A stretch of 61,935 bases of DNA, the filler included, from Sphacelaria rigidula (Eukaryota), in assembly GCA_964200075.2 (NCBI GenBank). It is 11 parts of 11 records of this genome, joined end to end, with 100 filler letters (N's around TTAATTAATTAA, not from the genome) between each part and the next. Parts side by side here need not be neighbours in the genome. Positions count along the whole stretch, not along the records: positions 39,480 to 45,018 come from CAXNAA020026511.1; 10 more parts are not named here. One strand, given 5' to 3'. Positions within the stretch are counted from its first letter, which is position 1. Each line of letters opens with the position of its first letter. Under the pieces are notes generated by a model. The model worked only from the letters and a program-made list of their open reading frames with translations, was not told the origin of the DNA and did no database searches. The translations under genes were made by a program, and so were the position numbers. Of this stretch, positions 31,250 through 52,211 are shown one piece after another.

Positions 31250-31281
31250 GCTGTTGTTGCTGTTGGCGGCGCTGCTGCTGC

Positions 31282-31317
<36 letters not shown>

Positions 31318-33740: not shown

Positions 33741-33984
33741 NNNNNNNNNNNNNNNNNNNNNNNNNNNNNNNNNNNNNNNNNNNNTTAATTAATTAANNNN
33801 NNNNNNNNNNNNNNNNNNNNNNNNNNNNNNNNNNNNNNNNAAGCACAACGCAAGGGTGGAAGGATGTCTGACACACTTATGAGCCTCTTTTTTCGTGCAA
33901 CCAAATACCCCCCCCCCCTATCGTAGGAAGACTCTGCAGTGTTTGTCCCGGAGATTTGGTTGTAGGTTTGTTTTTCGCGCCGCA

Positions 33985-35170
33985 CAGTACGCTTCACAGG
34001 GTTTCGTCACCCCGAGTACTGTTTATTGTCGTTAATATGCTGTACAGCCTTTATAGCGCACATACAATATGCTCTATACAGCATGGGCATGATACTGGCA
34101 GAGAAAAGAGGTCGAGAAATTGCAGTGGTAGGAATAGAACTCACGATTTTGAGCCCGGAATAGCAACCAGGTGTACATTGAGCTACCCGATTTGTTGTTG
34201 ACGACGAAATTGTTTTGTGCTTCTAAGAACTATCGAGCAAATACCTCCATAAACAAAAGCATAATTGAGTATTTTTTTTCTCATCATTCAGTTTCTTTTG
34301 GTAGACACTGGACCGCGGGGCTTCCATAAGCTATGTGCATTCATATACGAGGTATATTCCGTCAATACAGCATATTTACCACGCCTGCCGCGGAAGCGTC
34401 GCTTCGAAGCACAGGCGTGTGGACATACACTCGTAAGCAGTGTGTGGGATCTCTATTCAGCAGAAACTATTGAGAATTCATCCTTTACCCCAATTGGTAC
34501 ATGGACTGGGGGGCAAGAGAATGAATTGCTTTCAAATTTCTTTTCTGCGTGTCGGATCCCATACGCTGGTAGCGGTACAATGTGCGGGATATGCCCAGCT
34601 GACGCTGTTCGCACTGAAGCTCTGTTTGCCCAATTTCCGGATGAATTGGAGGGCAAAGTGAGGCTTTATTTCGAGCTTCTTCTGCTGTTCAAATTCCAAA
34701 TCTGCCAGTGTGCATGAGATTTGCGCAGCAGAAAATGCTGTTCGAAATAGATCTTTTTTCGCCCAATTTAAATGGACGAAAAAAATGACTATTTTGAGTA
34801 GGTTCTTCTGCTGTTCGAAACAACTCCTGTTTTTGCCCAAGTAAATTGGGCGAGAAAAGCATCTGTTTTGAATAGCTTCTCCTGCTTTCCGAGATAAATT
34901 CCTTTTTGACCGATTTACTTGGGCAAAAAAACATTATCTCGGACAACAGGACAAGCTATTCCAAATATATAAATTTACAGATTTTGTACCAAAATAATTT
35001 GGAATTTACAAAAATAAAATAAAATGGGAGGGCCTTTCCACAGGGTTGCTTGCAGGGTTTCGGCAACAACGCTATGCAAAATGCTAGTAGAGGTACCAAG
35101 GTTTGCAAATGCAATGCAGGGTTTCTCACAGAAGACTGTGAAGAACCCTGTGCAGCACGTCCTACAGGGT
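33985..35170 (+). mobile_element. Right part of a CACCCTGT-terminated element; related left part at 49479-50220
   Basis: Shared blocks in the same order (CACAGGGTTTCGTC, tRNA-like segment, TGCTGTTCGAAATA); right end CTACAGGGTG here, left end CACCCTGTGGAG in the other contig; CACAGGG subterminal repeats. Confidence 0.55.
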
Positions 35171-36269
35171 GCTATCTGTCCACATGTGTATGTGCTCTGA
35201 AAATCGGTCAGGTGTAGCGTTTTGGATCCTAACAATTTACCACCCAGGAGGCCACTGCGCAACCGTACTAGTCGGTCCTTATCAGAGGCGCCGCGAGGAG
35301 GGTAGTCAATCTGCATCGTGTATACTTTTTTCAAGTGAAATTGATGCTGACTCAACAGATGACCTATTTCCGCCGTCTAAGTGTTCAGACGTGTTTGGTT
35401 GGGCAAACATGGTTCACTTGGTTGTCACGATTCCCTTTTTCATGATGAAAAGAGGCAGTACGTAATTTGTGATGCCCGGGCAAGATGTTTCCGTGCTTAT
35501 GGCCTCTGATTGAAATCTGATGCCACGGCATCAATTTCTTTCGTACTGCTCATTCACCCGAAGAGAGAGGTAGCAGGTACTTGTAGTGTCCACGTGAGAT
35601 ACGATCGACTGACCCACCGTCGACCGACCCGCTGTCGTCGATAGATGAAAGCTGCAGAACAACTAGGTACCAACGAAGTTTGTGGTACCTGTGCTGCTGT
35701 AGGCCACAAACTTCAATTGTACAGTCTAATTATATGAAGTGTTTCTTTGTTATAAACTCCACATAGTAAAACTAATATAGAAATACTTGGTGACGATAAG
35801 CTGCGCAACACCTCTAGATGAACTGGACAACTGGCGCTCTCGTGCAGACTGGCTCACGTTTATCACCCAAAATGGTATTATCAGCAAATGCATTTCGCAA
35901 TACCTACCCAATAGCCGCGTACATGATATCATACCGACCGCTATGGGCAGCTGAAGAGCATGACGTAGCCGGATTTGTGTGTAAGGTCTGTAGCCTTTGT
36001 CAGACGATCTGGACAAGAGGACTTCCACGAGGAACTCCTCCAGTAGCACTGGCGTCGTGCTCGACACGTCCTTTTTTCTCACTTGTTATTATCACAGAGT
36101 GATCCTATACCGACCACATCAAGAGCCAGACAGCAAGGGGCCACACAGATGAGGGTATATCAATCCAGGATCCCCTGTCCCCTGCCACTGCTTCAATCAT
36201 GCACGCGATTATACTGAAATTTACGGCTTGGTATCATTTGGCTGTAGCACCCCCCAAGTGCACATCACA

Positions 36270-39200
36270 AGGGCTGTATACGGCAACAGAACGAACAGGC
36301 ACGGTAGGAACCTTCACCCAGCGAGGCAACAAATCTCCCCATCAATTGCGCTCTCCAGGAATGTGTTCAATGGCATACCGATTTCGGCTTAGTTCTCCTT
36401 TCCAACTTTCAAGCCGTTGTGCCATGGCCTTCGTCACCGATGTGACACACTCTTCGGGGTTAAAAATGTACTCAAGATTGCGATGATCGGTGAAAATGCG
36501 AACAGCATCCCAAAGCAAGTACTCTAGCCTTCGAAATGTATTGCCTATCGCGAAACCCTTCTTGTCAACTATCTCTCACCGCAACTGTAAACCCTTAAAA
36601 CTACCACTCAGAAAAGCCAGCGGTTCGTGTGACATGTTTTCAAGCGCAAGGGTGCTTTTAAACTCTGCGACAGGCACTTGCGTAAAAAAAGTACCCCCGT
36701 GAAACTCCGAAGCATCTGGAAACATGAGAGCAACGCACCCTGGACGAGAATGATACAGCGGCACCGCCCGCGCCACCAAATCTTGCCCAGAACGCCATGC
36801 CCGCACACGATCATGCGCCCAAGCGTCCCCCGGAATGGTATGATTACGCGCCACTCGCTTGGTCCAACGCGAAGCTTCGGCCATGAGTTGTTCCAGAACT
36901 ACTCGGAGCGGAGCAACCAATTCACCGCCTGCAGAAACTGCATCAGCTCACTAGCGGTTTGAGGACGTCGCATATTGCTCAAAACTTGAATACGGACGGG
37001 GTCATGCGAAACAGCACCCTTGGAGTACACCCTACCACACCAAACCACTTCGCGGGCGAAAAAAGTACACTCATGCGCAGCGACGAACGGACCAACACTC
37101 TCCATGCGGCCAAAATATTCGTCAAGCAAGGCTAACAGTGCTCCTTCGGTTTCAGCAAAGTAGAAAACGTCATCCATCCACACTTTACAATCTAGACCTC
37201 GCAAAATGTCAGGCAGCACGCGTTGGAAATACGTCGTGGCGTTCAACACGCCCTGCGGGACACAAGTAGGCGTAAACAAACGCGTGACAATAGTCAAGAT
37301 TCCCTGAGCCTTCAGCGCCAGAGGCATCTGCCAATATCCCTGTAGCAGGTCCACCCTACCAAAGCATTGTGCTCCCAGCAACTCCCGCATGCCTTCTTGG
37401 CTTGGCATCACCCCCGCAGACTGCTCCACTTGCGCGTTCACCGCCTGATAGTCGTTGGCCACACGGAATGTGTTCTTTTTTGGCACTGTCATCGCCGGAC
37501 TCGCCCACACAGCCTGGATATTCCTCACCACCAAACCAAACGCCACCAAAGCTGAGATGCATGAGGCAAGCCACCCGGTCTTCACCAAATGGTACCGTCT
37601 GGGCTTGGCCTTCACCGCATCTGTCTGGGGCTTGAGCTGCACGCTCATGGGCTCTACGCGCGCTGGCGGATCACCGCGCAGCGCACGGCGAAATGTCTCT
37701 ACGCGACGAGCCAAAATATCACGCAGAAAATGTGCGCCATTGGCGCTCAGGCCCTTCTGCTCGGCCTGCCGCACACTATATCCTCAAGCGCAAGTTCTCG
37801 TGCACCTCTCTCCTCTGCTGGGTCCATGAACGTGTCCGGCCCCCGATCGACCAAGCGCTCCACCGCTTCATCAGCAGGAGCCTCCTCCTCATTGGCGCTC
37901 TGGAATTACCGTATGGATACGATCACACGCCTTGCAGCAAGAGAGGTGTGATTTTTCACGCTGGTTTGCACCGGTACAGCACGCGGACGTAACTTATCCA
38001 ACGCCAGCGGATTCAAACCAATCCCGAGCTCCTTCATTGTCGCCATCTCAAATAGAACACGTTGTCCCTACCGGGCATGATAGTGAAAGCAATGGGAAAG
38101 TAATGGGCTAAAACTGCACAGCCCCCCACGGCGTACGCACGCTAACAGTAATCGGCACCGGTTTGTCTGTGACCGTCACGAGAGCACCCGTGGCGGTCTG
38201 CACCATTTGCGGTCCGTTTCCAAATGGAATCTGAAGCTGAGCGCCGCCAAACTGCGAAGACATCTGTTCTAGCAACCCCGCACTGATCGACATGAGCGCG
38301 GATCTAGAACCCAGAATAACGCGGGCCATGAAGGAACCTACAGAACCAGGCAAGACTAAATCTGCGCGTCAGCATTCAGCCTTGCGATCGACAGGTATCA
38401 CGCCTGCCGAAGAACCCTGTTCTGTACTAAGAGTCACCTGACGCCAGGGCTGCCCTTCAGCACTTGGCATCGATAGCTGCGAATCGTCGGTCCAACCAGA
38501 CCAAGTCTACGAATATACAGGCGGCGCTGTTACAGCTGTCGCAGCAGTAGGGAGTGCACCAGATACGGATCCTGCCTGGCCGAGGGGTTGCGAGCTATTC
38601 GCTCCAGCACTCCCCACCGAAGTATTTGCATTTCCCACGTGCACTGTCCGCCCCACTACGGACAAACCAGAAGATCCAGAGTCACCACCTGATGACGTAG
38701 TAGAAGAAACAGCAGCGGTGGAACCACCATCCGCGGCCGATTGCTTGCTACCGCGGCTGCCACGCCCGCGTCCCTGATTGGCACGGCCCCGTCCACTGTG
38801 GCGACCGCCCCGAGATCCTGATGAATCTCGCGCATTGCCCTGTGCAGCGCCTCAAGCGCGAGGCTTGGGGCAATCCTTGATCATATGTCCGATGTCGCCG
38901 CAGTTGTAACACGTGCGAGTGGACGACGCTCGCGAAGGCAGCTGCTATTTCTGTTACTGTTGGTGTTTGCGGCGCATACCACCTGCACTCGTTGCAGAAT
39001 CGCGCCGGCTATATGCTTCAATGAACTTTCACTGGTCGGCCGCCTCAAATAGGTTTTTGAACACCAACGTCGGGTTCTTTTTTCAGCCGTCAACATACGT
39101 TAGTACACTTCTAACATACGCCTTGAATTGCGGAGGCGAAATCCCGTCCACCAAAGCTATGGAAACCGACTCGGCCGGGCCTGGCAACAAACTCCGTCCT

Positions 39201-39379
39201 CCGCACGGTACATGGCTTATACCGTCAGGTATTCTGAGAAACACCTTTCCATAGCTGAACTGACCATAACCGCACGGTCTTTTACAGGTTTCCCACTGCT
39301 TTGTGGCATAAAACAGGGTTGCCAGAAAAATGAGAACGTATTTTGAAATGAGAATCAACCGCTCCCCAGGATTGTGTCC
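36270..39379 (-). mobile_element. Degenerate Ty3/gypsy internal region (gag zinc knuckle, PR, RT, RNase H), related to 7643-11180
   Basis: CYNCGDIGHMIKDC knuckle near 38865-38910; FRRALRGDPPARV shared with the contig-2 element; VDLLQGYWQ, PQGVLNATTYFQ, VWMDDV; FPDASEFH, IFTDHRNL. Confidence 0.93.
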
Positions 39380-39574
39380 NNNNNNNNNNNNNNNNNNNNN
39401 NNNNNNNNNNNNNNNNNNNNNNNTTAATTAATTAANNNNNNNNNNNNNNNNNNNNNNNNNNNNNNNNNNNNNNNNNNNNGTCAGGGAAAGCACGGCTTTT
39501 GAGTTGAACCTCATTTTGTTTTTCAACCCCATTTTCGAAAATCGGCTGTTATCTGTGTATTGATGTAGTAGCTA

Positions 39575-39910
39575 GCAGCTGTTGGTGCTGCGGCAGTACT
39601 TTTTGGTTGTTTTTCCGGTCTTGTTTATCGGTGGGACGACTACGGAATGGTGGTGGTGAAAATATTGGGGGGGTCAAGGCACACACGGGTGGCCACTGGG
39701 GTGCCTGCAACCTCAAATTTGGACGTTACAGATGATCTTGCTGTGCTTGTTGTGGTGCTGCGGCAGTACTTTTTTTATTGTTTTTCCCGTCTTGTTTGTC
39801 GGTGGGACGACTACGGAATGGTGGTAGTAAAAATATTGCGGAGGTCGAGGCAAACACGGGTGGCCACTGGGGTGCCTGCAACCTCAAATTTGGACGTTAC
39901 AGATCTTGTG
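39575..39910 (+). repeat. ~170-bp direct duplication (2 copies)
   Basis: GGTGCTGCGGCAGTAC...GGACGTTACAGAT occurs twice. Confidence 0.85.
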
Positions 39911-39967
39911 CAATGAGGTCTGTAACGTCCAAATTTGAGGTTGCAGGCACCCCAGTGGCCACCCGTG
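39855..39967. repeat. Perfect 49-bp inverted repeat with 15-nt spacer (mini-MITE / hairpin)
   Basis: 39855-39903 is the exact reverse complement of 39919-39967; CAC...GTG ends. Confidence 0.9.
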
Positions 39968-40084
39968 CAGGGTTTTTTTGCTGTGCGTTATCATCTTGGT
40001 TCACTCGACCGTCTGGCTGAGGATCTTCTTCTGTACAATTATTGTTGGCAGCTCTGCCTAATATGCTTCCCAGGGTTTGCGTCT

Positions 40085-40892
40085 TTTCAAAGGCAATAAA
40101 TTATAATGCCGAAGCCATCGTCCGACAACGACGACTACTGCTGTTCGCGCGGGAGCCCTGGCTAGACCACCGGACAGACGATTACCGAAGCGAACAGCAT
40201 TCATTCGGAACACTAGTCGAGGGGGAGAATCCAGGACAAGGGTGTCCGGAACAAAACTGGTTGAATTGCCCGAGGGGCGATCTTCACGCTCTAGGAGCCA
40301 CAGACGGCTCCACGGACGACAACCGCTAGACGTTCGGAATTTACCGCGTCCTATGGCCCTGAGCAGCGAATTAGGAAGGGGGGTTTGCCGTGGCACGCGG
40401 GAGTGCTGCAGGGAGCGGAGAGGTTCATGATCTCATGACACAGAAAAATAAAGAGGAGGCCAGCCGACTGCGTGCGATTAGACGGGAGACCAACGAAGCC
40501 CACGTAACACAGCATTTACGACGGTCCAGAGAATGGGGGGGGGGGGGGGTGAACCCCCCAATGAGGGATGTCGTTATGTCATGCCGTGCTTTGCTTGATA
40601 CACCTGGTACGCTTGTACGAATGGCTATCGCTTGAGAGGTCGAAAGATGGAACCTTGCGATTCTTGATTCTTTGGTTAGTGGTAATTGGGGCCTTGAGTC
40701 TCGCTGTAGTCGAACCCTACGTTCATTTCTACTTGGCATCGCGCGTCGAGTTGGAAAGCCGGGCGCCACCCTCCTGAAGTCCGAACGGCCACCTGCGCAC
40801 CGTATCTTCTGAGGTTAGCCACATGTGTTCTCTCTCTTCTTTATTACTTCTTTTTGTTTCGCTTGTATCGCGTTTTGTGAGTTTTTAATCTA
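40085..40892 (+). mobile_element. RTE-like LINE 3' fragment
   Basis: Across frameshifts: AIVRQRRLLF-AGALARPPDRRLPKR-FGTLVEGENPGQGCPEQNWLNC..DL, matching the RTE ORF C-terminal pattern; the 3' end recurs at 851-1000. Confidence 0.7.
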
Positions 40893-41707
40893 CAGCAGCA
40901 GTAGGCGGTCTAAATATTCAGTTTATGACATTTTTTTTGTGATTTTTTCGTAATTGGCGATTTTCTCGGACTCTTTTCGCTTGCCATCGCTCATCACATC
41001 GGGGATCTGAAGATAACTCTATCCGCTCCACATTCCGAGAAGAAAAAAACATCTGTACTCAATACTATTGGGTAAGTCACGGGCTGACCAGTCATCGGGG
41101 GTCCTGCCACGTTTCAGCCCAGATTCTTACCCTCTTGTATTTTCGGTCGATTGAGCCTGTCCCGACCATATTTGTCGAGAAATGTACAGTTCTTTCAGAA
41201 ATTCTGCCTACTCATTGCACTACAACAGCCGAAAAACTGTATTTCACGGTCAATACCACCTTTGAGATAAACGGGGTATTTACTCGTTTCGCCCGATAAC
41301 ACCAACTGGCACTGATTTGGACACTGTGTTTCGAGGATGACCTGTTTATCGTACCATAATCTACCGACGCTAGCAATTTCGAGTTTTTTTATCGAAGAGT
41401 AGTAGGCGAGGAAATGCACAAAACACCCGTCAAAAGTTATACCGCCCACTACTGTAGGTATATTCTGCTTTTTTGGGTTTGTTCGTTTTCCCCATACCTT
41501 ATTACGGGTAGCTAGCCTGTGACCAGGGAAGGCGTCCGCATCAGATGCTCGGTACGAGTACGAATGTACCGCGTAGATATCGGACCGGTTGTTCAATGTT
41601 AAGACAACAACAACAACAACAAAAACAACAACAACAGTGGGGACTGTCTGTAGTTAGTTGATGTGTGAAAGTTGATGCAGCAGATCGACCAGTAGTGTTT
41701 GAATTAA

Positions 41708-41804
41708 CCCTTAGACGGCGAGGTTGATCTTTTTGGATTATGCATACTTTTTTCACTTAAAATTGATGCCGATTCAACAGAAGACTAACCTCGCGGTCTA
41801 AGGG
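41708..41804. mobile_element. ~97-bp piggyBac-type MITE; relatives at 42449-42547, ~35280-35385, ~17760-17850
   Basis: TTAA|CCCTTAGACGGCGAGGTT ... AACCTCGCGGTCTAAGGG (17/18); shared core AAAATTGATGCCGATTCA. Confidence 0.8.
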
Positions 41805-41805
41805 T

Positions 41806-42790
41806 ATCTCCCAGAGGGGATGAAATTCTGGAGAAAAAATGACTCTCGTCATAGGTTCGTGACGCGGTTTGTTGTCTACTCTGAGCTGTCGTTCTGAGAA
41901 TTTACTCTTCGAAAAGACGGGCAGGAAAAGTGCATGCGGATAGCCTCTCGCGAGCAGTGGTGCGTGGAACATCTTACACATATCTCGGTATGTATGCTGC
42001 GTGCTCATCGGAAATTGTAGCCAAGTATCTCAAGAGCTCGCCCGTGATAAACGCAGCTTTGCTGTGTTCAGGGTGGGCGGAGTCGAACGGCATGTATGTT
42101 GTGTAACCGTACAGATTAAGGGCTTTCTGGTGGGTCCTGAAATTAAGTATTCCCCTGGGTCCCCAACGGTTTCCCTTGAATATTGTAAGATCCAGGAAAT
42201 CTTTGGAGCGTGGAGAGGATTCGTTGGTAACCACTCAAGAAGGATCTTGGTAGATTTTGGAAATCAGTCTTTTCGAATCATCAGGATCCAGATTCACGAG
42301 AGCCACGATATCGTCGATGTATCTTTTAAAGTACACGACCTCGTTGTGCTCTCGTAGGAATTGATTCTCCAGTATGGCTAGAGTTATCTTCGCGAGGGTG
42401 GGTGCGCTGGGAAGGTCTTGCCGTCTAACTGAGTATAACCCGTTTCAGCCCTTTGACCACGAGGGTTGGTCACCTGCTGAATCGGCATCAATTTTCACTT
42501 GAAAAAAGTATCCATGGACCAGATGGACTGCCCTCGCGGTCTAGGGGTGAAAAACTAATTCCACGACTCATCGTTTCACGAAGGAAAAAGGTTGTCGTCT
42601 GGGCACGTGTTTTTGTAATGATTTTTTGCCGCGATCTTCGTGAGCTCCATGACCTTTTGGATCGGGAGGGATGGATACAGGCTTGTGACATCGGCTGTCA
42701 CTAGCGTCAGGCTGCTGTCGTATTCTCTCTTTCCTAGATCTTGAACGAGCGACCTGCTGTCTTTCAATACCGTGTTGAAGACGTCGGCGG
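41806..42790 (-). mobile_element. Degenerate Penelope-like element reverse transcriptase, interrupted by a MITE at 42449-42547
   Basis: LVTADVTSLYPSLP, APTLAKITLAILE, YFKRYIDDIV, DFLDLTIFK, MPFDSAHPEHSKAAFITGELLRY and LLARGYP appear in the expected order. Confidence 0.85.
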
Positions 42791-43001
42791 TAAGTTGAAG
42801 CCAATGGCGGAGTAGAGAGCTCTACCCGAATTTTGAATTTTCACATTATGGAAAGAAAGATTCAAAGATTCAGCCCTTATGTACAACTTCGTACTTGTGT
42901 ACATGCATGTATATCTGGACCACATAAAATTCCGAGAGTCACCAACCATTCATTACAGAATGAAACGAAAGTACACCACATCGCACCGGCGCCACACTCA
43001 C

Positions 43002-43384
43002 GGAGAGAAATTGCCCAAAGGCCTGAACTGCAATTTGATGACACTGTTGAGCCCCTTGAGAATGCTCTGCGCCGGCGAGGGTGACGTAGTCGATCCATAT
43101 TCCGTCGCCTTGCCTTCGCTGTTCTTCCACACAGCCTCGTAGATTCCACCGAGGGCCGCAGCAATCACCGGAAACAGTAGTAGAAACAGAGCGCGCTGGT
43201 TGTGAGAGGTGCTCATGTTTGCCTCCGAGGTTATGTCATAATCGAGCTCATCGTTCGCGAAAAACCGCTCACGGTACCACTTGCCGCGGGTCATCGCGAG
43301 GTAGAACAGACTGTAGAGGAGCACCGCGCAAGCCAAGAAGCGTAAGCTCATGAGACTAACGCTGGTTGCGGTTGGTCGGCCCAT
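43002..43384 (-). CDS. FRO: First exon of a plant-FRO-like ferric-chelate reductase (N-terminal membrane region)
   Basis: ATCATGG start; two hydrophobic helices; RFLACAVLL...AM...WYRERF, LFLLLFPVIAAALGGIY and RPLGNFS parallel the N-terminus of plant FRO2-type proteins as recalled. The apparent TGA is part of a GTGAGT donor (42996-43001). Catalytic domains are not in the contig. Confidence 0.65.
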
Positions 43385-43667
43385 GATTGATGCCTTGAGT
43401 GGCTAGATTGCCTACCAATGTGTGTGCGTGTGGGGAGGCGGTGTTAGAGAAGTGGAGCGTCCATTGCCGGGTATCGGTGTATCTCTAGCGCCACGGGGGG
43501 GGCTAGTTGAATTATTTTGCGGCACAACAGTTATTGGGCACGCGCTCCGCACCCCAGACGCACGCGCTGGTGTGTGCCACTGGTTTCACCAAATAAATAT
43601 ATCCAAAACTCCACGCCCCCCCATGCCCTCCTCTCACTTCAGAAGTATACATCCAACATCATTAAAC
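43385..43667. promoter_or_regulatory. Candidate bidirectional promoter between the FRO-like and FEA1-like genes
   Basis: 283 bp between divergent ATGs; GCACGCGCT twice (43538, 43560); GGCAC/GTGCC at 43521, 43537, 43574; AT-rich box at 43591-43602. Confidence 0.55.
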
Positions 43668-43894
43668 ATGGCATCTCGAGCGTTATCGATGATGCTGTTG
43701 GCGGCTACTTACCCGAACTACTCAGAGTCGACATCTCCAGTTTTCGACCCCATCGCTGGGTGGACGCCAGTGTCCGATGTTGTGGAGCACTCGAAGCTCG
43801 ACCTCGACACGCTAGCGATGGAGGCTAACGCCGATAATCAAACCGACGCAGGGTTCTTGGCTGCGTATGAAGCATACTCACTCGGGGGAAACAG
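43668..43894 (+). CDS. FEA1: First exon of a FEA1-like low-iron-inducible secreted/periplasmic protein
   Basis: AAACATGG start; signal-peptide-like N-terminus; IAGWTPVSDVVEHSKLDLDTLAMEA...FLAAYEAYSLGGN. The phase-2 donor (AG|GTGTGA) can complete the family G(G/K)NS motif. Confidence 0.78.
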
Positions 43895-44231
43895 GTGTGA
43901 CAGACGACAGAGATAGAATGTCGATGGCAGTTGCATGCACGAATAGTGCAGGTACGCCGTATGATATGTGTGCACCTCCTGTATGATATTCTCGCCTCTG
44001 CAAGTTTTAATTTTGTGCGCCGTCATGACTTTTGGATCCATTCCAGTTCATTCGCGGACTTTTTCATGCGGGGCTGCTTTGAAAAAATGAGGATGCTGCA
44101 CAGCACGCGATTTTTTTCCGGGGCTTGAGGAAAGCGATTCGTTTTTCTCTTCTCAGAAGTCGTGTGGTGTGAATCCGCACCTTGTTCGTCGGTAAAAGTA
44201 CAACCCTGCGGTTGTTGGAAAAAAATACGTA

Positions 44232-44552
44232 CAACAGTGTTTTCGTGAGATTGAGAGTAGTAGTAGATGATACGATTGAGAGTGGCTTTGATCGTTCGCT
44301 TTAAGTGAGTCATTTTCTTATTCCACGTTTGCTTTTCTTCACCTCCATCACTTGCGTGTGCTTACAGCTACACGTCGATATCCTCGATATCCTACCCAGG
44401 GATATCAAGGGCGTCAATGGCCAGCTATTCCAGAAAGCATGTTGGGCCTCGTGGAAGCGCATTTCGGGACTGAAACGATTCATTCATCACTGATTGACCG
44501 CTTTTCACTCTCAATCGTATCATTTACTCTCAATCTGACGAAAACACCGTTA
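44232..44552. mobile_element. TA-flanked MITE, ~320 bp; partial copies 44957-45018 and ~45230-45500
   Basis: TA|CAACAGTGTTTTCGTGAGATTGAGAG ... CTCTCAATCTGACGAAAACACCGTTA|TA. Confidence 0.8.
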
Positions 44553-45583
44553 TACGGGGTACACTCGTGGACAACAGACATTGTCCTCCAAACGAGTCAT
44601 TTTGTTTTCGCAAAGACACACCACTCGTGGGAGAGGTGGGGACATCGGATTCGTGGCGCGAATTAATTGCGGGTGTTCACCTTCTTTTTCACGTTCTCAC
44701 TCGCTGGCACGGGAAAAGAGGCACGCGTTAAGTTGCAAATGTTGCCGACAGCCGATAGGGGCTCGAACCCCAGACGGTGGCCCTAAAAAGTACGAACGGT
44801 CAGAATACAGCGTTTTGACCACGGGAACTTGTTGGTGGAGAACGTGACAAACTCCTTGCTCTTGAAACGGAAATGAAAAGGCCTCATTCCAGGTAGATAT
44901 ACTTGAGGTTACGAAAGAACACAAAATAAACAGAAAATCAACTGTAGCCCGGCTCCTAACAGTGTTTTCGTGAGATTGAGAGTAGATGATACGATTGAGA
45001 GTGAAAAGCGGTCCATCANNNNNNNNNNNNNNNNNNNNNNNNNNNNNNNNNNNNNNNNNNNNTTAATTAATTAANNNNNNNNNNNNNNNNNNNNNNNNNN
45101 NNNNNNNNNNNNNNNNNNTACCTCTGTGCCAACTTTCAGGCCGGTTCGTTCAGACACGGCGGAGAAATCCGCAAGCAAAATAGCGCGCTTGACTTGGCCT
45201 GAAAATACAGTACTAAACCGTCGAAAGATACATGAGGTGCGTTCTCGTATGATTCTCCCTGTTAGTGAATGGATCGTTTCACTTCCGGAATACCCCCCAT
45301 TATGCCCGATACGCTTTTTGTAGTAGCTTGCCACTGAAGCCCGTGATACCCATGAGTAGGATATCGACGTGTAGCTGTAAGCACACGCCAGTGATAGAGG
45401 CAAAAAAAAGTACACACGGAATGAGAAAGTGGCCAAGGTAAAGCGAATAATAAACCCACTCTCAATTAACGCTCTGCTCTCAGTCTCACGAAAAAATGGT
45501 TCCATGCTCCTCCCTCCTAGTTTTGGGTATTGCGTTGCAGGGACGAGCGGGGTGTCGGGTGCAGAGCTTTAACAGCCGGTCTT

Positions 45584-45868
45584 GAGGATGGAGCTTTTCA
45601 TTGAGGATAATAACCCGGAAAAGTGAAAACCTTTGTATCCACATCAATTAATTTCTCGAAATATGATTCCATTCCTCCATCTGCAGTAACCCGGAGAATC
45701 ACAAACTCTGTATATTATCTAGACTATACAAGTTTTCGGAATATACTTCCATTCCTCCATCTGTACCGCGTGAATGGAGGAATGGAAGTATATTCCGAAA
45801 AATTGATGTGGATATGAGGAAGTTTTTACTTTTCTGGGTTATTATTCTCAATGAAAAGCTACATCCTC
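45584..45868. mobile_element. Foldback MITE with long TIRs and an internal hairpin
   Basis: GAGGATGGAGCTTTTCATTGAGGATAATAACCC / GGGTTATTATTCTCAATGAAAAGCTACATCCTC; internal TTTTCGGAATATACTTCCATTCCTCCAT inverted repeat. Confidence 0.8.
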
Positions 45869-46809
45869 GATTTTGATGACCGACTGTTTTTTTTCCTTCC
45901 GGCAGCCTATCTACGTTGACTTCCACGCTATGGCTCACGGCGGAGAGTCTTCACATGGACAGAGTAGTCTGATGCCTCGTCGATTTGTCTATACTGGCTT
46001 GAAGTTTCGAACAGCAGTTGTCTAAGCAACGACTAGCACAATTTCCTATCAAGTATTAACATTGGTACCACCAGTCACTCTGCTGTCCGTTTGACAGGTA
46101 AGTGTTGAACGGGTGCAGAGGTGTGAGATTGAACCTTGCCGTCCCTGGCACTGGGTGTGTTTGAGCGTATTGATCCCCCATCACACACGAAACACACAGC
46201 AAAAGCACCTCATTCACCTGCGCTTTATTGATTTGGGGTCGTTTTCCTTTGCTCATTTGATGCAACAGGTTTTCAGTGAATCACTTCGACAGAATGGGCA
46301 AGGGTTTGACCTTCTTTCAAATCTGAAAATATTGCCATATATTCAACAACCGCTTGTTTTTGTAGTTACTGCTCTCCAGCTCTAGTCTGCATACGCATCA
46401 TACCGACTTCGATGGCAACATAGCTTCAGAGACATACAAACAGCCGATTCTGATTTTTGGAGTTGAACGCTAAAATGGGTTTCAAGTGGCATTTCTTTTT
46501 TGTAGGAACGGCGCGAAACAGTTACACTGAGGGAAACAATTTCCCCCCCCCCCCCGAACTTTTGCAGCAGTTAAGCAGTTGTGGCTAGGTGCACCGAACG
46601 AATGCGAGATACACGCGTGACGATGACGATGCCACCAGAGCAGTAACGGCCGAGAGGAAGCTTCTCGCCCGTGTCATTTTTGTGCCCTCGCTCGGCGATT
46701 ACCAATCGCTCCAAAGACTGGCACCATGCATGCCACCAGCATGTACCCAATTCCCCATGTGCCGGTAGGCAGGTTATACGGCTGCACAGCTCCCCCAAAA
46801 ACATCGAGG

Positions 46810-47335
46810 CACATGTATGCGCGGAGGACGTGGGAACCTAATACGGACAGAAAGCCAACATACGAGAGCTAAAGGAAATAGGCGGGGTAGGAAGCTGTAC
46901 AAATGGAGAATCGATAAACTAGATATGATAGGAAAACGGCAAGAGTTACAAGAAGAGATGGCCAAAAGTGCAGTGGAAATTTCCGAGCTGTTGGAACGCG
47001 AAGGTACAGTTAATACCGAAATGAAAAAAAGATCAGGCATTAGCGAAGATTGTAGAAGAATAGGAGCAGCTGGTCAAGAGCACAGCGAGTAAAGTCATGG
47101 GAAGGAAACTGATAGTATGTAGCAGAGCAGTAAAATCGTGGGATGAGGGAGTCAGAGAGGCTATCAGAGTAAGGAGAGAGGCCCACGCGAGATGGGTGTC
47201 GAGCGAAAGTGCGGTAGGACGGGAGCAGTATTCCCAAGCTCGAAGGAAGTAAAAAAGATGGTACAGAAGAAAAAGCAGGAAGCTCGGGAAGGTGTAGTGA
47301 GAGAAACAAATGAAGATTTCGATGGCGGGATACGA
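46810..47335 (+). mobile_element. Internal fragment of LINE family A (APE-RT linker)
   Basis: HVCAEDVG...KLYKWRIDKLDM matches 55760-56205. Confidence 0.85.
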
Positions 47336-47829
47336 CAAGTGTGCACACCCTGGACAATAGAAGGCATCTATCGCTGTAGCAATAGAATTCACCGTAATAG
47401 ACGAGTATATTCTCGATCGTAATGGCTATCAACGATGAAACTTCTCCGTCCATTGCCCTGACCATGTGTATTGACACAAGAAATTAAAATCCATTCCTGG
47501 TGACCATGTATATCGATGGAACGTTTCGAAAATTCATTGTCACAGACCATTTATATTGATGGAAATTTACGGAATCTATGGCGAAGGACCATGTGTATTG
47601 ACATGAACTTTTCATTGTCCATTTCCATGCACGATGTGTATCGGTGACATGAACCAAAATTTATCGTTACCGACCAGTGCCCATCGGTGTAATATTTCAC
47701 ACATCATTGCCAGTAAAGATATATATCGATGAAAGCATCACCCAGTACGTTGTTTCCAGCAATGGATATGGACAAATATATGTTGCAGTCATTGTTCTCC
47801 CTAATAGATATCGATACACCTTGTGTGGA

Positions 47830-48112
47830 TTCTTTGGATGTGAACATTGCGCCCTACAGGGTGGGTGTCAATAATATGTACATGTTCCCATCGACGGCAG
47901 ACAAAAATGCTCCCCGCAATGGATATCCATCTATCCTCTTGTGTACAATCTTTGGATGTGAACATCGCGCCCTGGGAGTCAATAATATGTACATGTGCCC
48001 ATCGACGGCAGACAAAAATGCTCCCCGCAATGGATATCCATCTATCCTCTTGTGTACAATCTTTGGATGTGAACATCGCGCCCTGGGAGTCAATAATATG
48101 TACATGTGCCCA
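47830..48112 (+). repeat. 111-bp tandem repeat (~2.5 copies)
   Basis: CTTTGGATGTGAACATCGCGCCC at 47950 and 48061; the units are near-identical. Confidence 0.9.
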
Positions 48113-48710
48113 TATCGATTTCCTACAGGTCGAGGGCAGACAACACTGCCCCCCACAAAATATGTTCACCTATTCTCTTGTGTGTATTCTTCGGGTGGGC
48201 CATGTCAGGTCTAGCCAACACTGCATTCCGGCGCTCAAGACCTCATTCATCAGCACCATATACCGTGGATACGAAAGTATATATATTATTATGTCAGCCC
48301 GCAGTAACCCATGGGTCAAGCCATGGTCGCAAAATAGACATACCCAAGAAAAGCGAAACTGCAACACTCGTTCAAGAAAATAAAGGAGCAGAAAAAGGCC
48401 CGACATGCAGGATCATATTTGCGTCTACAGATAGCGTCCGACAGGGCGCGTGCCGATAGTATGCACATGTTCGGATCATTACCCACAGGTTCACAGCCTC
48501 AACTAAAGTTTCTCGTCCTTTGTAATGTCAGTATATACAAGGGCACGAAAGGAAAACGATGGAGCACGTCGTCCTTCGCCCAGGGCATGTCAACACATGC
48601 CATGTCTGCAGAAAAAGGCGTTACATTTTTGGCGACCTGAACACGTGCCAACCCCGACCAAGCACATAACGCAGGAGCACCGCAGTTCGACCACATTTTT
48701 CATCCTCCCC

Positions 48711-49206
48711 ATGAGCGACAACGGTATCCTCCCCATGAGCAACAACGTTGAGCAGAGACCGTCTTCTGCTTCAGGCGAAGCACAGCCTGCCGCCCTTGCC
48801 CCTATATTTGATCTTCGGAACTCGTGTAGCGGAGGTCGTTCCAAAGACAAGTCCGAACAGCTGAACAGCTGAAATTTCCGGAAAACGGACCGATCGCAGT
48901 AAAGACGGCAATCAACAACTACATCCCTGCAGAAGGCAGCTACGTCGCACGCCCAGACGCACGAAGCCCTAGCGTCATTCATTTTTGGGGCGTGCGGTTG
49001 GACACAAAGCCGGAAGAGGAGTGGAGCTACGACGACAAGGGGAAGCCGGTCGAGAGGGAGCAGTCTTTTTCTTGCCAAGCAGATGAAGGTTGTCGCAACA
49101 AAATACCGATGATAAAAATCACGAGTAAGCAAACATCGAGTGCTACGACCCATTTGGACAAGCAGCACAATATCAAGAGCTCCCGGACACAAGCTGCAGA
49201 CGAAAA
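48711..49206 (+). pseudogene. 5' exon of a hAT-like transposase (BED-type zinc finger), frameshifted
   Basis: SVIHFWGVRL...FSCQADEGCR...QTSSATTHLDKQHNIKS (W-C-C-H-H BED pattern); GTGAGT donor at 49207; frame broken by an 8-bp duplication at 48855-48870. Confidence 0.65.
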
Positions 49207-52200
49207 GTGAGTGTGACACCTCTTCCCGTTCGATTGTTTCTCGCGCCTAGAGGAAGTGTCAATCGGTGCTTTGAGGAATATGTGTACGCGCAGTGCTGCC
49301 ACTACACAAGCTACATGGTCGCTGTGGGGAAGCAAGTACGTTATGTTCATTACAGAGTGTTGAATGACGTGAATTTGTACGCATGAAGTTTTTGTTTCCG
49401 GTTGAGTAACAACCAGTAGCAGCGATTGAAGGGGAAAGCTTGAGTGAGCGTTATGCCGCTTCACACGTGGATAGATAGCACCCTGTGGAGGGGGGTTACA
49501 AGGTTTACGTGCTCTGCGCAGTGTCACTGGCGGGAATTTCACTGTACAGTGTTTTATAGCGTAGCACACGACGCTCCACAGGGTTTCTCCACACTGGTCA
49601 TGAATAGTGTGCATCACAGGGTTTCGTCGCCCCGTGAAGAGTTTATCGCTGCTGGCAATGCTGTGCAGTGTGTTTACGCACAAACACTACTCTCCACATG
49701 CTGCTGCGGGCAAGATACTGGCGGAAAAAAAGGACTGGGCATGGTTGGACGGGGAGTCGAACCCACGGCTTCATCGTGACATGGGCAACTGGTTATACAC
49801 TGAGCTACATATGGTAGTCGTTGTAGATGGAGTATACTCTTTGTACTTCTGATTTTTGGGGGGTTTTAATTTTGGGGTCCTCGAAGGTCCTTGTCAACAC
49901 TGAAATCCCCCGGATTGTTTTTAGAAGCACAAGTGCAATGGAAATTTGGAATTTGGACAGCATCTGCTGTTCGAAATAAATCCTAATTCCAAACTTGGAA
50001 TAGATCAAGAAGGATTCATTTGAAATAAACCCTAATTCCAAACTTGGAATAGGGAGAAAAAGGATTCATTCGGAAGAGCTTAAGCTGTACAGATAATCCC
50101 ATATAGACTATATATAGCAGGTAGAATTTGTACACCGCCAATACCTGAAATTGGGCAGAGAAACCACTTGCTCGCGAGCAGCTTCTCCTGTTCAAGTCCC
50201 GCATACTGCACGCAAGGTTTAATTGCAGCTGAGGTAATGATGACATAACGCAATTAACCTCGGTTACCAAATCATATATACCTGATGAAAAACCCGTAGT
50301 CCCGTGTCGACCAAACTAAAACAATACCCGGAATAATGAAACATCTCATCGCGAAACATCTCATCGCGCGGAGGATACTGCGTACTCGGGATATATCTTC
50401 ACAACAATAAGCTGTACTGAACTGTAGAATACCATTGCATGCGGGACAGTGCGCTATACCGTGCTTTTACGTGCGGCGCCATGTACTGCAGATGGCTGGC
50501 TATATATACAATGTAGATGCCTGCAGCTGATTTTGATATATGGGGGTGTTTTATGCCGTCACGAGCTCCAGTATTACGCGGGCGTTCCACAGCATATAAC
50601 AACCGATTTTATATTTTGGGGTTCATACAAAATATGGGGCTGAAGTGGCATATCTGTNNNNNNNNNNNNNNNNNNNNNNNNNNNNNNNNNNNNNNNNNNN
50701 NTTAATTAATTAANNNNNNNNNNNNNNNNNNNNNNNNNNNNNNNNNNNNNNNNNNNNACCCCATCGGGGGTCCGCCCCTACAAAGCCGGGACGGAGCACG
50801 CCGGGTTCTCACCGGACCAAGCGGGGGAGGGGTCGAGCAAGTGACGAGTATAAATTGCTGAATAATATTGAGGCAATCATCGCATCAATCCCTTCACTCA
50901 GACCCGAGGTGGACAGATTGGGAAATCCTGGGCGACTACCGCGCATGAAAAATACTAAAACACCCCCCTGGTGGTGAGGAGGGGTACTTCTGTACAATGG
51001 CTGTGCGTGACCGTAACCTATGGATTGATGCCTGGGGACCGTTTGGTGCAAGATTTCCACAAAACAGTGCACTGCGACAAAGCAATACGGTGATGTTGCC
51101 CTAATGTACAGTACTACTCGGCAGTTGTACAGCACAGTACATTCGAGTATGATAGTGTTTTCCTGAATGTTTTGGAAAATTTAGCGTGACTTGACCAACG
51201 ACCTACCTCTTGGAAAGTACACCCCCAATTCTGAAACTTTGGGACTGGAGTATGACTCGCAGTCACACTCGATGTCCAAGATGGACGGGGGGGGGGGGGG
51301 GGGGGGGGAGGTTACTGCGATGGGGGGGGCGGGAGGTGGCGCTTTTTTCGATAGCCCCCCCCCAAAAACACCCCAAAANNNNNNNNNNGTGCTGAGCCTA
51401 GAGAACTGGAAAGACTGAATGCCAGTACAGGAGGCAGGGGGGGTTGGCGGGGGGGGAGATCGTTACGTTACTGCAATGTCGAGAGCTGCAGATGACGCTT
51501 TTTACGATAGCCTACCCCCAAAATCAGCCCAAAAATTGTCGTGAAAAAAACGGTTATACAGCGCCTAATGTTCGGGTTCAGGCCGCATGAAGCGCCTATA
51601 CGGGCGACATTGGCGAAAACGGACCGAAGCGTGGGAATTCCCAGCTGCTCGCCGTGCTCTGCTTTTTTCCATTTCGATTCGCGTGTACATTTTGCCTTCC
51701 CAAACGAGCTTCCTGTTGTTGTTTTTTTTTGGGGGGGGACTATCGTAGGAAGTGCCAGATGGTCTTATACTCTCCAAAGCTGGAAGAAATACACCACCGT
51801 GCAAACAAACTAGGATATGGGCGAAGAAAAAACAAGATGGCATTGGATGGCACGAACCAGCAGGACAAAGTAATGCTCAGTGACCGAAGTCCAACCTCCA
51901 GGTGATGACCATAACACGGCACAAGCAGTTCATTTCGGGAAGAGAGGGCGCGTGCTCATTTGTTGCTTGCGTTCGTTATTTGACGATTATTGACCACACA
52001 TACCTTTTGAGACGGAGTACCCATGGGCGGGGATGGTGGGGGGTACTCATGATCTTGCATGCTATTGTCATATATATGACCATTGACCATGCATCCTTAG
52101 AACTTATCTTAATTTTGGGTGACAGGCTCCAATGAGTTGCTTCATTTTCTGGGATCGCAACTTCCAGAAGTAGCCACGTGCTGTACGCTGCCTCATGGAT

Positions 52201-52211
52201 TTCTCATCCTC

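What the first reader, a model, noticed from the sequence alone, without database searches (positions are those of the whole stretch)
43002..43894. Head-to-head ferric reductase (FRO-like) and FEA1-like gene pair: candidate co-regulated iron-uptake module
Seen: two divergent first exons with good ATG contexts and GT donors, start codons only 283 bp apart, in sequence otherwise bloated with transposons. Known: FEA1-family proteins are low-iron-induced secreted iron-assimilation proteins in green algae, and FRO/FRE proteins reduce Fe(III) chelates at the cell surface. Inferred: a capture protein and a reductase driven by one bidirectional promoter would be an operon-like reductive iron-uptake unit. 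I do not know of such a pair described in brown algae. Both assignments rest on N-terminal fragments recognised by eye.
Basis: partly seen in the sequence, partly recalled or inferred. Interest (0 to 1): 0.8.

Follow-up and report, generated by a model that had tools for sequence, protein, structure and literature searches.

The report
Divergent ferric-reductase and FEA1 first exons
A brown-algal ferric reductase gene and a FEA1-type iron-binding protein gene start back to back from one very short shared promoter, but only their first exons lie in this stretch; the rest lies beyond transposon-filled introns tens of kilobases long.

Summary
A minus-strand exon runs from ATG 43384 to 43002 with a GTGAGT donor. 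A plus-strand exon runs from ATG 43668 to 43894 with a GT donor. The start codons are 283 bp apart. Both identifications hold by homology. The minus peptide is 72% identical over its full length to the N-terminus of the Ectocarpus siliculosus ferric reductase (PF01794+PF08030). The plus peptide is 79% identical to the N-terminus of an Ectocarpus protein with two Fea1 (PF07692) and two WSC stretches. Neither exon peptide matches its Pfam family on its own. Contigs from three runs guessed to be RNA cover both exons, and one leaves the genome exactly at the predicted reductase donor. No later exon of either gene lies anywhere in the window: 9 of 9 homologue queries found only exon 1. So the first introns exceed about 43 kb and 18 kb, or the genes are truncated or misassembled. 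Iron co-regulation was not tested. Adjacency in relatives could not be resolved. Head-to-head pairs are common in brown algae, and the diatom FRE2/FBP1 pair is a precedent. Verdict: a real, plausible iron-uptake gene pair, a new member of a known kind, of moderate interest.

The parts
43002..43384 (-). Exon 1 (coding part) of a FRO-type ferric reductase gene. It encodes 127 codons + 2 nt: an N-terminal extension with two hydrophobic segments (about residues 9-33 and 63-86) that precedes the Ferric_reduct domain in the orthologue.
   Evidence: Translation. 72% identity and 100% coverage to Ectocarpus siliculosus ferric reductase CBN80509.1, E 8e-49. tblastn aligns it to P0003 residues 15-143. 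Hydropathy. 11 homologous ORFs align, and all 11 end at the same ...SP/stop.
43000..43001 (-). GT of the exon-1 donor (CC|GTGAGT). The split codon CCN = Pro, as in the orthologues.
   Evidence: Sequence. The X8 contig (267 nt) matches 43002-43097 with its letters 172-267; its other 171 letters lie off the laid stretch (table 8).
43385..43476 (-). Minimum 5' untranslated part of the reductase transcript (at least 92 nt).
   Evidence: The X6 contig of 374 nt covers 43103-43476 without differences (table 8). That the run is RNA is the tool's guess.
43385..43667 (.). 283-bp space between the start codons: the presumed bidirectional promoter. At most 178 bp (43477-43654) are not covered by the two contigs.
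   Evidence: GC 0.53, CpG observed/expected 0.74, no TATA[AT]A match.
43538..43568 (+). Two exact copies of GCACGCGCT, 22 bp apart start to start (43538-43546, 43560-43568), inside the uncovered promoter core. A candidate cis-element, as a lead only.
   Evidence: the repeat finder. 3 matches in the window against 0.36 expected; 1 of 100 shuffles reached 3.
43655..43667 (+). Minimum 5' untranslated part of the FEA1-type transcript.
   Evidence: The X7 contig of 198 nt covers 43655-43852 without differences (table 8). That the run is RNA is the tool's guess.
43668..43894 (+). Exon 1 (coding part) of a FEA1-WSC-type gene, 75 codons + 2 nt. It has a hydrophobic N-terminus (signal-peptide-like) and the first ~58 residues of a Fea1 domain (DPIAGWTPVSDVVEHSKLDLDTLAME...).
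   Evidence: Translation. 79% identity to residues 1-75 of Ectocarpus CBN74008.1. The Fea1 profile covers residues 18-363 of that protein. 8 of 8 unspliced homologous ORFs read on past the same boundary with Arg (AG|G).
43895..43896 (+). GT of the exon-1 donor (AG|GTGTGA). The split codon AGY = Ser, as in the orthologues (GGN-S).
   Evidence: Sequence. Orthologue sequences.
1..42999 (-). Presumed first intron of the reductase gene (lower bound: it runs off the window). It is filled with retroelement remnants and high-copy repeats, and it holds an unrelated GNT-I exon (4369-4512) on the same strand.
   Evidence: No reductase exon was found by tblastn with 3 of 3 reductase queries. No PF01794/PF08030 hit in the minus-strand ORFs (150; 73 of its 99; 110). 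RVT_1, RT_RNaseH and rve hits.
43897..61935 (+). Presumed first intron of the FEA1-type gene (lower bound). An irregular 10-N run at 51379-51388 may be a scaffold gap, so only 7.5 kb are certainly contiguous.
   Evidence: No Fea1/WSC exon was found by tblastn with 6 of 6 FEA1 queries. 0 families in 150 plus-strand ORFs. N runs.

Best explanation
These are the genuine first exons of two brown-algal genes transcribed away from each other from a shared promoter of under about 180 bp.
- One is the orthologue of the Ectocarpus FRO-type ferric reductase, a flavocytochrome that moves electrons from cytosolic NADPH through two hemes to Fe(III) outside the cell.
- The other is the orthologue of an Ectocarpus secreted protein with two Fea1 and two WSC stretches (Fea1 = iron-binding, phytotransferrin-related; WSC = carbohydrate/cell-wall binding).

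Shown:
- the exon anatomy;
- orthology of both N-termini;
- conservation of both exon boundaries in other brown-algal contigs;
- contigs of runs guessed to be RNA that cover both exons, one of which departs from the genome exactly at the reductase donor.

Inferred:
- The remaining exons lie outside the window, behind transposon-swollen first introns (over 43 kb and over 18 kb).
- The compact promoter has been kept free of insertions because both genes depend on it.
- The pair is co-expressed, most likely under low iron, so that a wall-anchored Fe(III)-capturing protein and the reductase that releases Fe(II) appear at the surface together.
For: Identity
- P0001 vs CBN80509.1: 72% identity, 100% coverage, E 8e-49. 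The hit carries PF01794 (residues 151-278) and PF08030.
- The three Ectocarpus reductases examined each have one H-x13-H and one H-x12-H pair and a GGSGVT motif. The meaning of these motifs is recalled knowledge of the NOX/FRE family.
- P0002 vs CBN74008.1: 79% over 75 residues. The Fea1 profile covers residues 18-363 of that protein at E 4e-42, and WSC matches at 6e-31.

Conservation
- 11 of 11 homologous reductase exon-1 ORFs (58-91% identity) end at the same Ser/Phe-Pro-stop, which is what CC|GTGA gives.
- 8 of 8 unspliced FEA1 exon-1 ORFs read Arg after the boundary.

Transcription (table 8)
- X6 contig covers 43103-43476.
- X7 contig covers 43655-43852.
- X8 contig matches 43002-43097 and has 171 further letters off the stretch, so it breaks exactly at the predicted donor.

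Functional link (passages of reviews and papers read)
- Fea1 is related to the phytotransferrin ISIP2a, and Ot-Fea1 binds iron (PMC7676907).
- Ectocarpus takes up iron by a reductive mechanism with a FRO2-like surface reductase (PMC3904714).

Precedent
- Diatom FRE2 and FBP1 are divergent, about 1.5 kb apart, and their expression is correlated and iron-sensitive (PMC6876252).

Linkage clue
- In Ectocarpus sp. 6, one reductase copy (P0009) and the FEA1-WSC protein (P0016) both list a 282000-bp contig.
Against: - No exon beyond the first was found for either gene in 61.9 kb. So no heme, FAD/NAD or complete Fea1 coding sequence is shown for this organism.
- A canonical GNT-I exon on the same strand (4369-4512) sits where the reductase's later exons would be expected. 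A nested gene or a rearrangement would therefore have to be assumed.
- Neither exon peptide matches Ferric_reduct or Fea1 on its own: the reductase peptide has no Pfam hit, and the FEA1 peptide has only an unrelated weak one (E 0.13).
- That runs X6-X8 are RNA is a guess by the tool, and I could not read the 171 off-stretch letters of the X8 contig.
- In E. siliculosus the two orthologues are listed on different records (76577 and 4527641 bp). The complete reductase copy of Ectocarpus sp. 6 (P0008) is on a 52907-bp contig.
- Divergent neighbours with short spacers are the rule in brown algae, so adjacency alone does not show shared regulation.
- No iron-dependent expression data were examined.
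- The orthologue has HAMS where the family usually has HPF[ST], and it has no PF08022 hit.
Confidence: 0.6

Rival explanations
1. The pair is real and expressed, but the adjacency is incidental. It would be one of the many short divergent gene pairs of brown algae, sharing a nucleosome-free region without any iron-specific joint control.
For: In brown algae more than half of adjacent genes can lie on opposite strands. Divergent pairs have shorter spacers and share nucleosome-depleted regions (supplemental results passages of bioRxiv 10.1101/2024.02.19.579948). E. siliculosus lists the two orthologues on different records. No expression contrast was tested.
Against: Only a handful of genes in a genome act in iron uptake, so a chance pairing of two of them is improbable (inference, post hoc). 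There is the same-contig clue in Ectocarpus sp. 6. There is the diatom FRE2/FBP1 precedent and the joint FEA1/FRE1 expression in Chlamydomonas (title of Allen et al. 2007, seen in the reference list of PMC7676907).
Confidence: 0.3
2. It is an orphaned exon-1 pair. A transposon-mediated rearrangement separated the promoter and both first exons from their gene bodies, and what remains is a still-transcribed relic that splices into unrelated sequence.
For: No later exon of either gene was found in the window with 9 of 9 homologue queries. An unrelated GNT-I exon lies on the reductase strand 38 kb downstream. High-copy repeats abut both exons.
Against: Both reading frames, both start codons and both donors are intact. 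The peptides are 91% and 86% identical to their closest library relatives. The GNT-I exon is likewise isolated within at least 4 kb and 8 kb of exon-free sequence, so multi-kb introns look normal here. The DNA contig over 42484-44254 has a depth like neighbouring non-repeat contigs, though the tool warns that depth is not a copy number.
Confidence: 0.12
3. It is an assembly artefact. The about 2.2-kb low-copy island carrying the two exons was joined to the wrong repeat-rich flanks, so the true next exons are near but were placed elsewhere.
For: The island is bounded by repeats whose summed depth is 10^5-10^6. An irregular 10-N run lies at 51379-51388. Logan contigs of the best DNA holder are short here; the longest piece is 1771 nt, 42484-44254.
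Against: No irregular N run lies in the 43 kb on the reductase side. Nothing in the calls shows a misjoin. The laid DNA run may be the window's own source, so it cannot settle this.
Confidence: 0.1

Closest known systems
Phaeodactylum tricornutum FRE2/FBP1 divergent gene pair (Coale et al. 2019, PMC6876252, passages read; review PMC7676907)
   Same: A ferric reductase of the same superfamily sits head to head with a gene for an extracellular iron-substrate-binding protein. In the diatom, expression of the two is correlated and iron-sensitive, and they work as capture plus reduction.
   Different: The partner there is a FhuD-like siderophore-binding protein and not a Fea1 protein. The spacer is about 1.5 kb against 283 bp between ATGs here. 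Co-regulation is shown there and untested here. The diatom genes are compact, whereas here the first introns exceed tens of kb.
Chlamydomonas reinhardtii FEA1/FEA2/FRE1 iron-deficiency regulon (Allen et al. 2007; only the title was seen, in the reference list of PMC7676907)
   Same: [quoted passage not shown]
   Different: Coordination there is by regulon. From recall, not from a call, FRE1 is not the divergent neighbour of FEA1. The green-algal FEA1 has one Fea1 domain and no WSC domains.
Ectocarpus siliculosus ferric reductase CBN80509.1 (D8LNK5) and FEA1-WSC protein CBN74008.1 (D8LDE3)
   Same: They are orthologues of the two exons (72% and 79% identity). Both exon-1 boundaries are at the same residues.
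   Different: The annotated Ectocarpus reductase starts 14 residues further upstream (MDKWQF...), which is closed by a stop here. The two Ectocarpus proteins are listed on different records. Only the first exons are present in this window.
ISIP2a / phytotransferrin and Ostreococcus Ot-Fea1 (review PMC7676907, passages)
   Same: They share the Fea1/ISIP2a domain family. They are surface proteins that bind Fe(III), and repeated multiplication of the Fea1 domain is described.
   Different: Iron binding is shown for those proteins and not for any brown-algal member. The brown-algal orthologue adds two WSC domains. A Nemacystus relative (P0042) instead ends in a hydrophobic stretch after a single Fea1 region (sequence).
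Brown-algal M1PDH3/M1Pase1 head-to-head pair of the mannitol cycle (bioRxiv 10.1101/2024.02.19.579948, passage)
   Same: A functionally linked, divergently transcribed gene pair is conserved in brown algae.
   Different: That spacer grows from about 500 bp to 10 kb in a large genome (Fucus serratus). Here the spacer stays at 283 bp while the surrounding sequence is swollen with repeats. The pathway is different.

Membership tests
Ferric reductase domain superfamily (FRO/FRE/NOX) | Sequence relationship to an established member | tested here: met
   Exon-1 peptide is 72% identical over 100% of its length to Ectocarpus ferric reductase CBN80509.1, which carries PF01794 and PF08030.
Ferric reductase domain superfamily (FRO/FRE/NOX) | Ferric_reduct transmembrane domain (PF01794) with two His pairs for two hemes | tested here: inconclusive
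   Not encoded in the window: 0 hits in the ORF scans and no tblastn hit beyond exon 1. Present in 3 of 3 Ectocarpus orthologues (PF01794 at 151-278 in P0003; H-x13-H at 187, H-x12-H at 268). The exons must lie outside the window.
Ferric reductase domain superfamily (FRO/FRE/NOX) | FAD-binding domain (PF08022, HPF[ST] motif) | tested here: inconclusive
   Absent from the window. The orthologues give no PF08022 hit at E<=0.001 and have HAMS at the expected place. The motif definition is recalled.
Ferric reductase domain superfamily (FRO/FRE/NOX) | NAD(P)H-binding domain (PF08030) | tested here: inconclusive
   Absent from the window. It reaches Pfam's cut-off in the two orthologues scanned (25.9 and 25.0 bits against 22.2; GGSGVT in the three examined).
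Ferric reductase domain superfamily (FRO/FRE/NOX) | Fe(III)-chelate reductase rather than NADPH-oxidase activity | not testable with these tools
   Indirect only: no solved NOX/DUOX chain matches the orthologue at E<=0.001. Ectocarpus is reported to use a FRO2-like surface reductase (PMC3904714).
FEA1 / Fea1 domain family (PF07692) | Match to the Fea1 profile | tested here: inconclusive
   The 75-residue exon peptide alone gives no Fea1 hit even at E<=10. The orthologue it matches at 79% has the Fea1 profile from residue 18, positions 15-340 of 359, E 4e-42. So the exon encodes only the first part of the domain; the rest is outside the window.
FEA1 / Fea1 domain family (PF07692) | Secreted: N-terminal signal peptide | tested here: inconclusive
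   Hydrophobic stretch at residues about 4-14, aligned with the orthologues' N-termini. No signal-peptide predictor was available.
FEA1 / Fea1 domain family (PF07692) | Induction by low iron; iron binding | not testable with these tools
   No iron-contrast data were available. Contigs cannot give expression levels.
Head-to-head gene pair with bidirectional promoter | Opposite strands, transcription starts less than 1 kb apart | tested here: met
   ATGs are 283 bp apart. Contigs of the runs guessed to be RNA reach 43476 and start at 43655, leaving at most 178 bp.
Head-to-head gene pair with bidirectional promoter | Correlated expression of the two genes | not testable with these tools
   Only contigs were available, and the tool states that depth cannot rank genes.
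Head-to-head gene pair with bidirectional promoter | Arrangement conserved in relatives | tested here: inconclusive
   Same 282000-bp contig length for P0009 and P0016 in Ectocarpus sp. 6, but different records in E. siliculosus. Two metagenome scans found no locus. 0 matching contig lengths among the exon-1 ORFs.

The most novel reading that the evidence does not exclude
An ancient brown-algal iron-uptake cassette. A promoter core of under 180 bp, carrying a duplicated GCACGCGCT element, drives a wall-anchored, phytotransferrin-related FEA1-WSC capture protein and a FRO reductase in opposite directions under low iron. It has been kept intact across brown-algal orders even where transposons have stretched the first introns of both genes beyond 18-43 kb, with another gene nested inside one of them. 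It would be the Fea1 counterpart of the diatom FRE2/FBP1 pair and the first defined iron-responsive bidirectional promoter of a seaweed.
Probability: 0.25. Interest if true: 0.6.

Novelty: new member of a known kind. Interest (0 to 1): 0.4.

Why it matters
Iron acquisition in brown seaweeds is known physiologically to be reductive (passages of PMC3904714). Searches of the held library found nothing on their Fea1 proteins or on any reductase/Fea1 gene pairing: 0 papers for Ectocarpus + ferric reductase + FEA1, and 3 papers holding FEA1 + brown alga, of which the 2 listed by title are on other subjects.

If the pair is conserved and iron-regulated, it would give three things:
- a concrete two-gene model, capture then reduction, for iron uptake at the algal wall;
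- a compact natural bidirectional, possibly iron-switchable promoter for brown-algal genetics;
- a parallel to the diatom FRE2/FBP1 module, suggesting that stramenopiles repeatedly couple a reductase to a substrate-binding partner.

The locus also shows how a promoter can stay compact while the introns beside it grow to tens of kilobases.

Tried and rejected
**Whole genome and earlier notes**
- Whole-genome search: no genome is held for this window.
- Earlier notes of this scan: nothing by place, words or sequence.

**Pfam scans**
I switched to stop-to-stop ORFs.
- The two exon peptides alone: no relevant hit.
- Minus-strand ORFs >=35 aa, 27409-43484: I gave 150 of the 172 listed and dropped the 22 lowest (24803-27387). 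There were no reductase domains, only RVT_1 x2, RT_RNaseH, and four weak hits taken as chance: TIR_3 and BssB_TutG below cut-off, Caudo_TAP, and the RVT_1 fragment at 18 bits.
- Plus-strand ORFs >=35 aa, 43407-59978: I gave 150 of 175, dropping 4 with N runs and 21 beyond 59978. 0 families.
- ORFs >=75 aa elsewhere: I gave 99 of the 220 listed. Hits were only GNT-I, rve and one weak Tudor hit.
- Minus-strand ORFs of 28-74 aa in 1-13 kb, 110 in all: no further GNT-I exon and two weak chance hits.

**Sequencing runs**
- No RNA holder is listed on record; X6-X8 are RNA only by the tool's guess.
- The first read-laying request (34001-54000) was turned back because of short pieces between N runs. 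It was repeated on the N-free 39480-45018.
- In that call, the low-copy parts outside the two exons and their spacer (41885-42439, 42625-42994, 43920-44104, 44660-44844) had no cover in X6-X8.
- The 171 off-stretch letters of the X8 contig were not among the loose ends printed (504 were not shown).

**Microsynteny**
- Two scans of metagenome contigs, one with each exon-1 alignment, matched patterns (125 and 146 stretches), but none was confirmed by tblastn.
- Comparing contig lengths of reductase exon-1 ORFs (12 values) with FEA1 exon-1 or full-length entries gave 0 matches. This is uninformative because the library shows only representatives.

**Structures and literature**
- PDB sequence search with the Ectocarpus reductase: 0 hits.
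- The accession numbers of the two Ectocarpus proteins occur in 0 papers.
- Bottger et al. 2012, the paper with the Ectocarpus iron-gene survey, is not held under its DOI or PMC id. Its gene identifiers and any supplement could bear on adjacency.
- Broad searches returned nothing relevant.

**Considered and rejected**
- Chance ORFs: rejected on the E-values.
- A NOX-type oxidase: no EF-hand or NOX match, but not excluded.
- An upstream in-frame ATG at 43623 as the FEA1 start: the orthologues start at the 43668 position.
Full report
**1. Observation**

The region was read directly.
- On the minus strand, an ATG at 43384 follows an in-frame stop at 43405-43403 and opens a frame that runs to 43002. 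There the sequence reads CC|GTGAGT.
- On the plus strand, an ATG at 43668 opens a frame to 43894, followed by AG|GTGTGA.
- The exons are 383 nt and 227 nt, each ending after the second base of a codon.
- Exactly 283 bases lie between the ATGs. Both ATGs have A at -3 and G at +4.

**2. Identity**

On their own the two peptides match neither family in Pfam: the reductase peptide has no hit, and the FEA1 peptide has one unrelated hit at E 0.13. The large protein collection gives the following.
- The 127-residue minus peptide (P0001) is 72% identical over its whole length to the Ectocarpus siliculosus protein named ferric reductase (CBN80509.1, 729 aa, E 8e-49). It is 70% identical to the E. fasciculatus orthologue (2 hits among 574 candidates).
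- Pfam places Ferric_reduct (PF01794) at residues 151-278 and NAD_binding_6 (PF08030) at 452-529 of that protein. tblastn aligns the window's exon to residues 15-143.
- The exon therefore encodes only an N-terminal extension, with two hydrophobic segments, ahead of the catalytic domains.
- The three Ectocarpus reductases examined each have one H-x13-H and one H-x12-H pair in the transmembrane domain and a GGSGVT motif. They have HAMS where the family usually has HPF[ST], and no FAD_binding_8 hit. The meaning of these motifs is recalled, not tested.
- The 75-residue plus peptide (P0002) is 79% identical to residues 1-75 of Ectocarpus CBN74008.1 (934 aa). In that protein Fea1 (PF07692) matches twice, the first time from residue 18 (E 4e-42), and WSC (PF01822) matches twice.
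- So the plus exon encodes a hydrophobic, signal-peptide-like N-terminus and the first fifty-odd residues of a Fea1 domain.

**3. Conservation**
- A search among proteins of similar length found 12 hits among 39 candidates. One is the window's own ORF. The other 11 are 58-91% identical in the alignment, and most come from short unnamed contigs.
- All 11 end with Pro and a stop directly after the residues aligned with 43002. This is what an unspliced CC|GTGA donor gives, so the exon boundary is conserved.
- For the FEA1 exon, an exhaustive search of 1.84 billion representatives gave 42 proteins at E<=0.001.
- Of the ten I read, eight are unspliced ORFs, and all eight continue with Arg after the aligned GGN/GGS/GFN, as the window does. 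Two are spliced models that continue with Ser.
- One of those two is from Choristocarpus tenellus and one from Nemacystus decipiens. The exon is therefore widespread in brown algae.

**4. Transcription**

No run holding the stretch is on record as RNA. Three runs of one study are guessed to be RNA. Their contigs were laid on the N-free stretch 39480-45018 together with the best DNA holder.
- A 374-nt contig of X6 covers 43103-43476: the reductase exon plus 92 nt upstream of the ATG.
- A 198-nt contig of X7 covers 43655-43852: the FEA1 exon from 13 nt upstream of its ATG.
- A 267-nt contig of X8 matches 43002-43097 with its last 96 letters. Its first 171 letters lie nowhere on the stretch.

A contig that departs from the genome at exactly the predicted donor is best explained by splicing. 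I could not read the departing letters, so what the exon joins to is not shown. If these contigs are transcripts, at most 178 bp (43477-43654) separate the two transcribed regions. The best DNA holder has one 1771-nt contig over 42484-44254 without differences. Its depth is like that of neighbouring non-repeat contigs, but the tool warns that depth is not a copy number and that this run may be the window's own source.

**5. The missing gene bodies**
- tblastn against both strands of the whole window was run with three reductases (P0003, P0004, P0008) and six FEA1 proteins (P0006, P0019, P0036, P0042, P0048, P0084). It found only the two first exons.
- Every other hit had E of 0.12 or worse.
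- Pfam scans of stop-to-stop ORFs found no Ferric_reduct, FAD/NAD or Fea1/WSC piece (the subsets given are listed under Tried and rejected).
- The reductase's next exon is therefore more than 43 kb away. The FEA1 gene's next exon is more than 18 kb away, of which 7.5 kb are certainly contiguous, up to a 10-N run at 51379.
- The intervening sequence holds reverse-transcriptase, RNase H and integrase remnants. In the part that was laid, it also holds repeats of very high summed depth close to both donors.
- On the reductase strand, 38 kb downstream, there is a well-formed 144-nt exon of an unrelated GNT-I glycosyltransferase: AG acceptor, GTGAGT donor, EDD motif. No sister exon lies within 4 kb on one side or 8 kb on the other.
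- This cuts both ways. It shows that isolated exons in multi-kb introns are normal in this genome. It also means the reductase's first intron would have to contain another gene, unless the locus is rearranged or misassembled.

**6. Is it a module?**

Shown: two genes whose families act in iron acquisition start within 283 bp on opposite strands.

Support from passages read:
- Ectocarpus takes up iron reductively with a FRO2-like surface reductase (PMC3904714).
- Fea1 is related to the diatom phytotransferrin ISIP2a, an Ostreococcus Fea1 protein binds iron, and Fea1 domains have multiplied repeatedly (PMC7676907).
- The diatom FRE2 and FBP1 genes are divergent, about 1.5 kb apart, correlated and iron-sensitive (PMC6876252).

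Against reading too much into adjacency:
- Brown algae have a strong excess of alternating gene orientation and short divergent spacers with shared nucleosome-free regions.
- At least one other functional head-to-head pair (M1PDH3/M1Pase1) is already described (bioRxiv 10.1101/2024.02.19.579948).

Cross-species adjacency could not be settled:
- In Ectocarpus sp. 6, one truncated-model reductase copy and the FEA1-WSC protein both list a 282000-bp contig. A second, complete reductase copy lists a 52907-bp contig.
- In E. siliculosus the two orthologues are on different records.
- Metagenome scans and contig-length matching gave nothing.

Iron-dependent expression was not testable. The spacer contains two exact copies of GCACGCGCT, 22 bp apart (3 in the window against 0.36 expected). 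From memory, its CACGCG core resembles iron-responsive elements of Chlamydomonas promoters. This is a lead, not a finding.

**7. Verdict**
- The most likely reading (0.6) is a genuine, expressed, divergent reductase/FEA1 pair whose bodies lie beyond giant transposon-filled introns, with joint iron regulation plausible but untested.
- The rivals are incidental adjacency (0.3; this one is compatible with the genes being real), an orphaned exon pair (0.12) and a misassembly (0.1).
- The arrangement is a new member of a known kind: functionally linked head-to-head pairs, with the diatom FRE2/FBP1 pair as precedent.
- The held literature yielded nothing on Fea1 proteins or such a pair in brown algae. 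These searches cover only the held library, and the key Ectocarpus iron paper could not be read.

Noticed in passing
window 4369-4512 (-): An isolated, canonical exon of a GNT-I family glycosyltransferase (PF03071, E 5e-15). It has an AG acceptor at 4514-4513, a GTGAGT donor at 4368-4363 and an EDD motif. No other GNT-I exon was found in minus-strand ORFs >=28 aa within 1-13 kb. It lies on the same strand as the reductase exon, 38 kb downstream.
   Followed up: partly
window 36345-37783 (-), 42238-42444 (-), 14733-15656 (-): Retroelement remnants: RVT_1 (E 1e-9) with RT_RNaseH next to it, an RVT_1 fragment only about 560 bp from the reductase donor, and an integrase core domain (rve).
   Followed up: no
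window 42440-42624, 44105-44659, 44845-45018: Short very high-copy repeats directly beside the two exons. Summed contig depth in the DNA run is 10^5-10^6, against about 65 on the island between them. The 44.2-44.55 kb element shows inverted ends by eye (MITE-like).
   Followed up: no
window 51379-51388: The only irregular N run (10 N). All the others are pairs of 44 N every 5640 bases. It may be a scaffold gap 7.5 kb downstream of the FEA1 exon.
   Followed up: no
window 43623-43625 (+): An upstream ATG in frame with the FEA1 start, 15 codons earlier. Orthologues start at the 43668 position, so it is probably in the 5' UTR or unused.
   Followed up: partly
library proteins P0034, P0084, P0019: Fea1-type units are multiplied to very different degrees in related proteins: 2 in Ectocarpus CBN74008.1, 4 tblastn matches to the exon motif in a 1566-aa Ectocarpus sp. 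6 protein, and 11 matched stretches in an unnamed 4250-aa protein.
   Followed up: no
Ectocarpus sp. 6 proteins P0008 and P0009: Two reductase entries occur in one species on different contigs (52907 and 282000 bp). The second has a frameshifted-looking C-terminus. This could be a duplicate locus, a haplotig or a model error.
   Followed up: no
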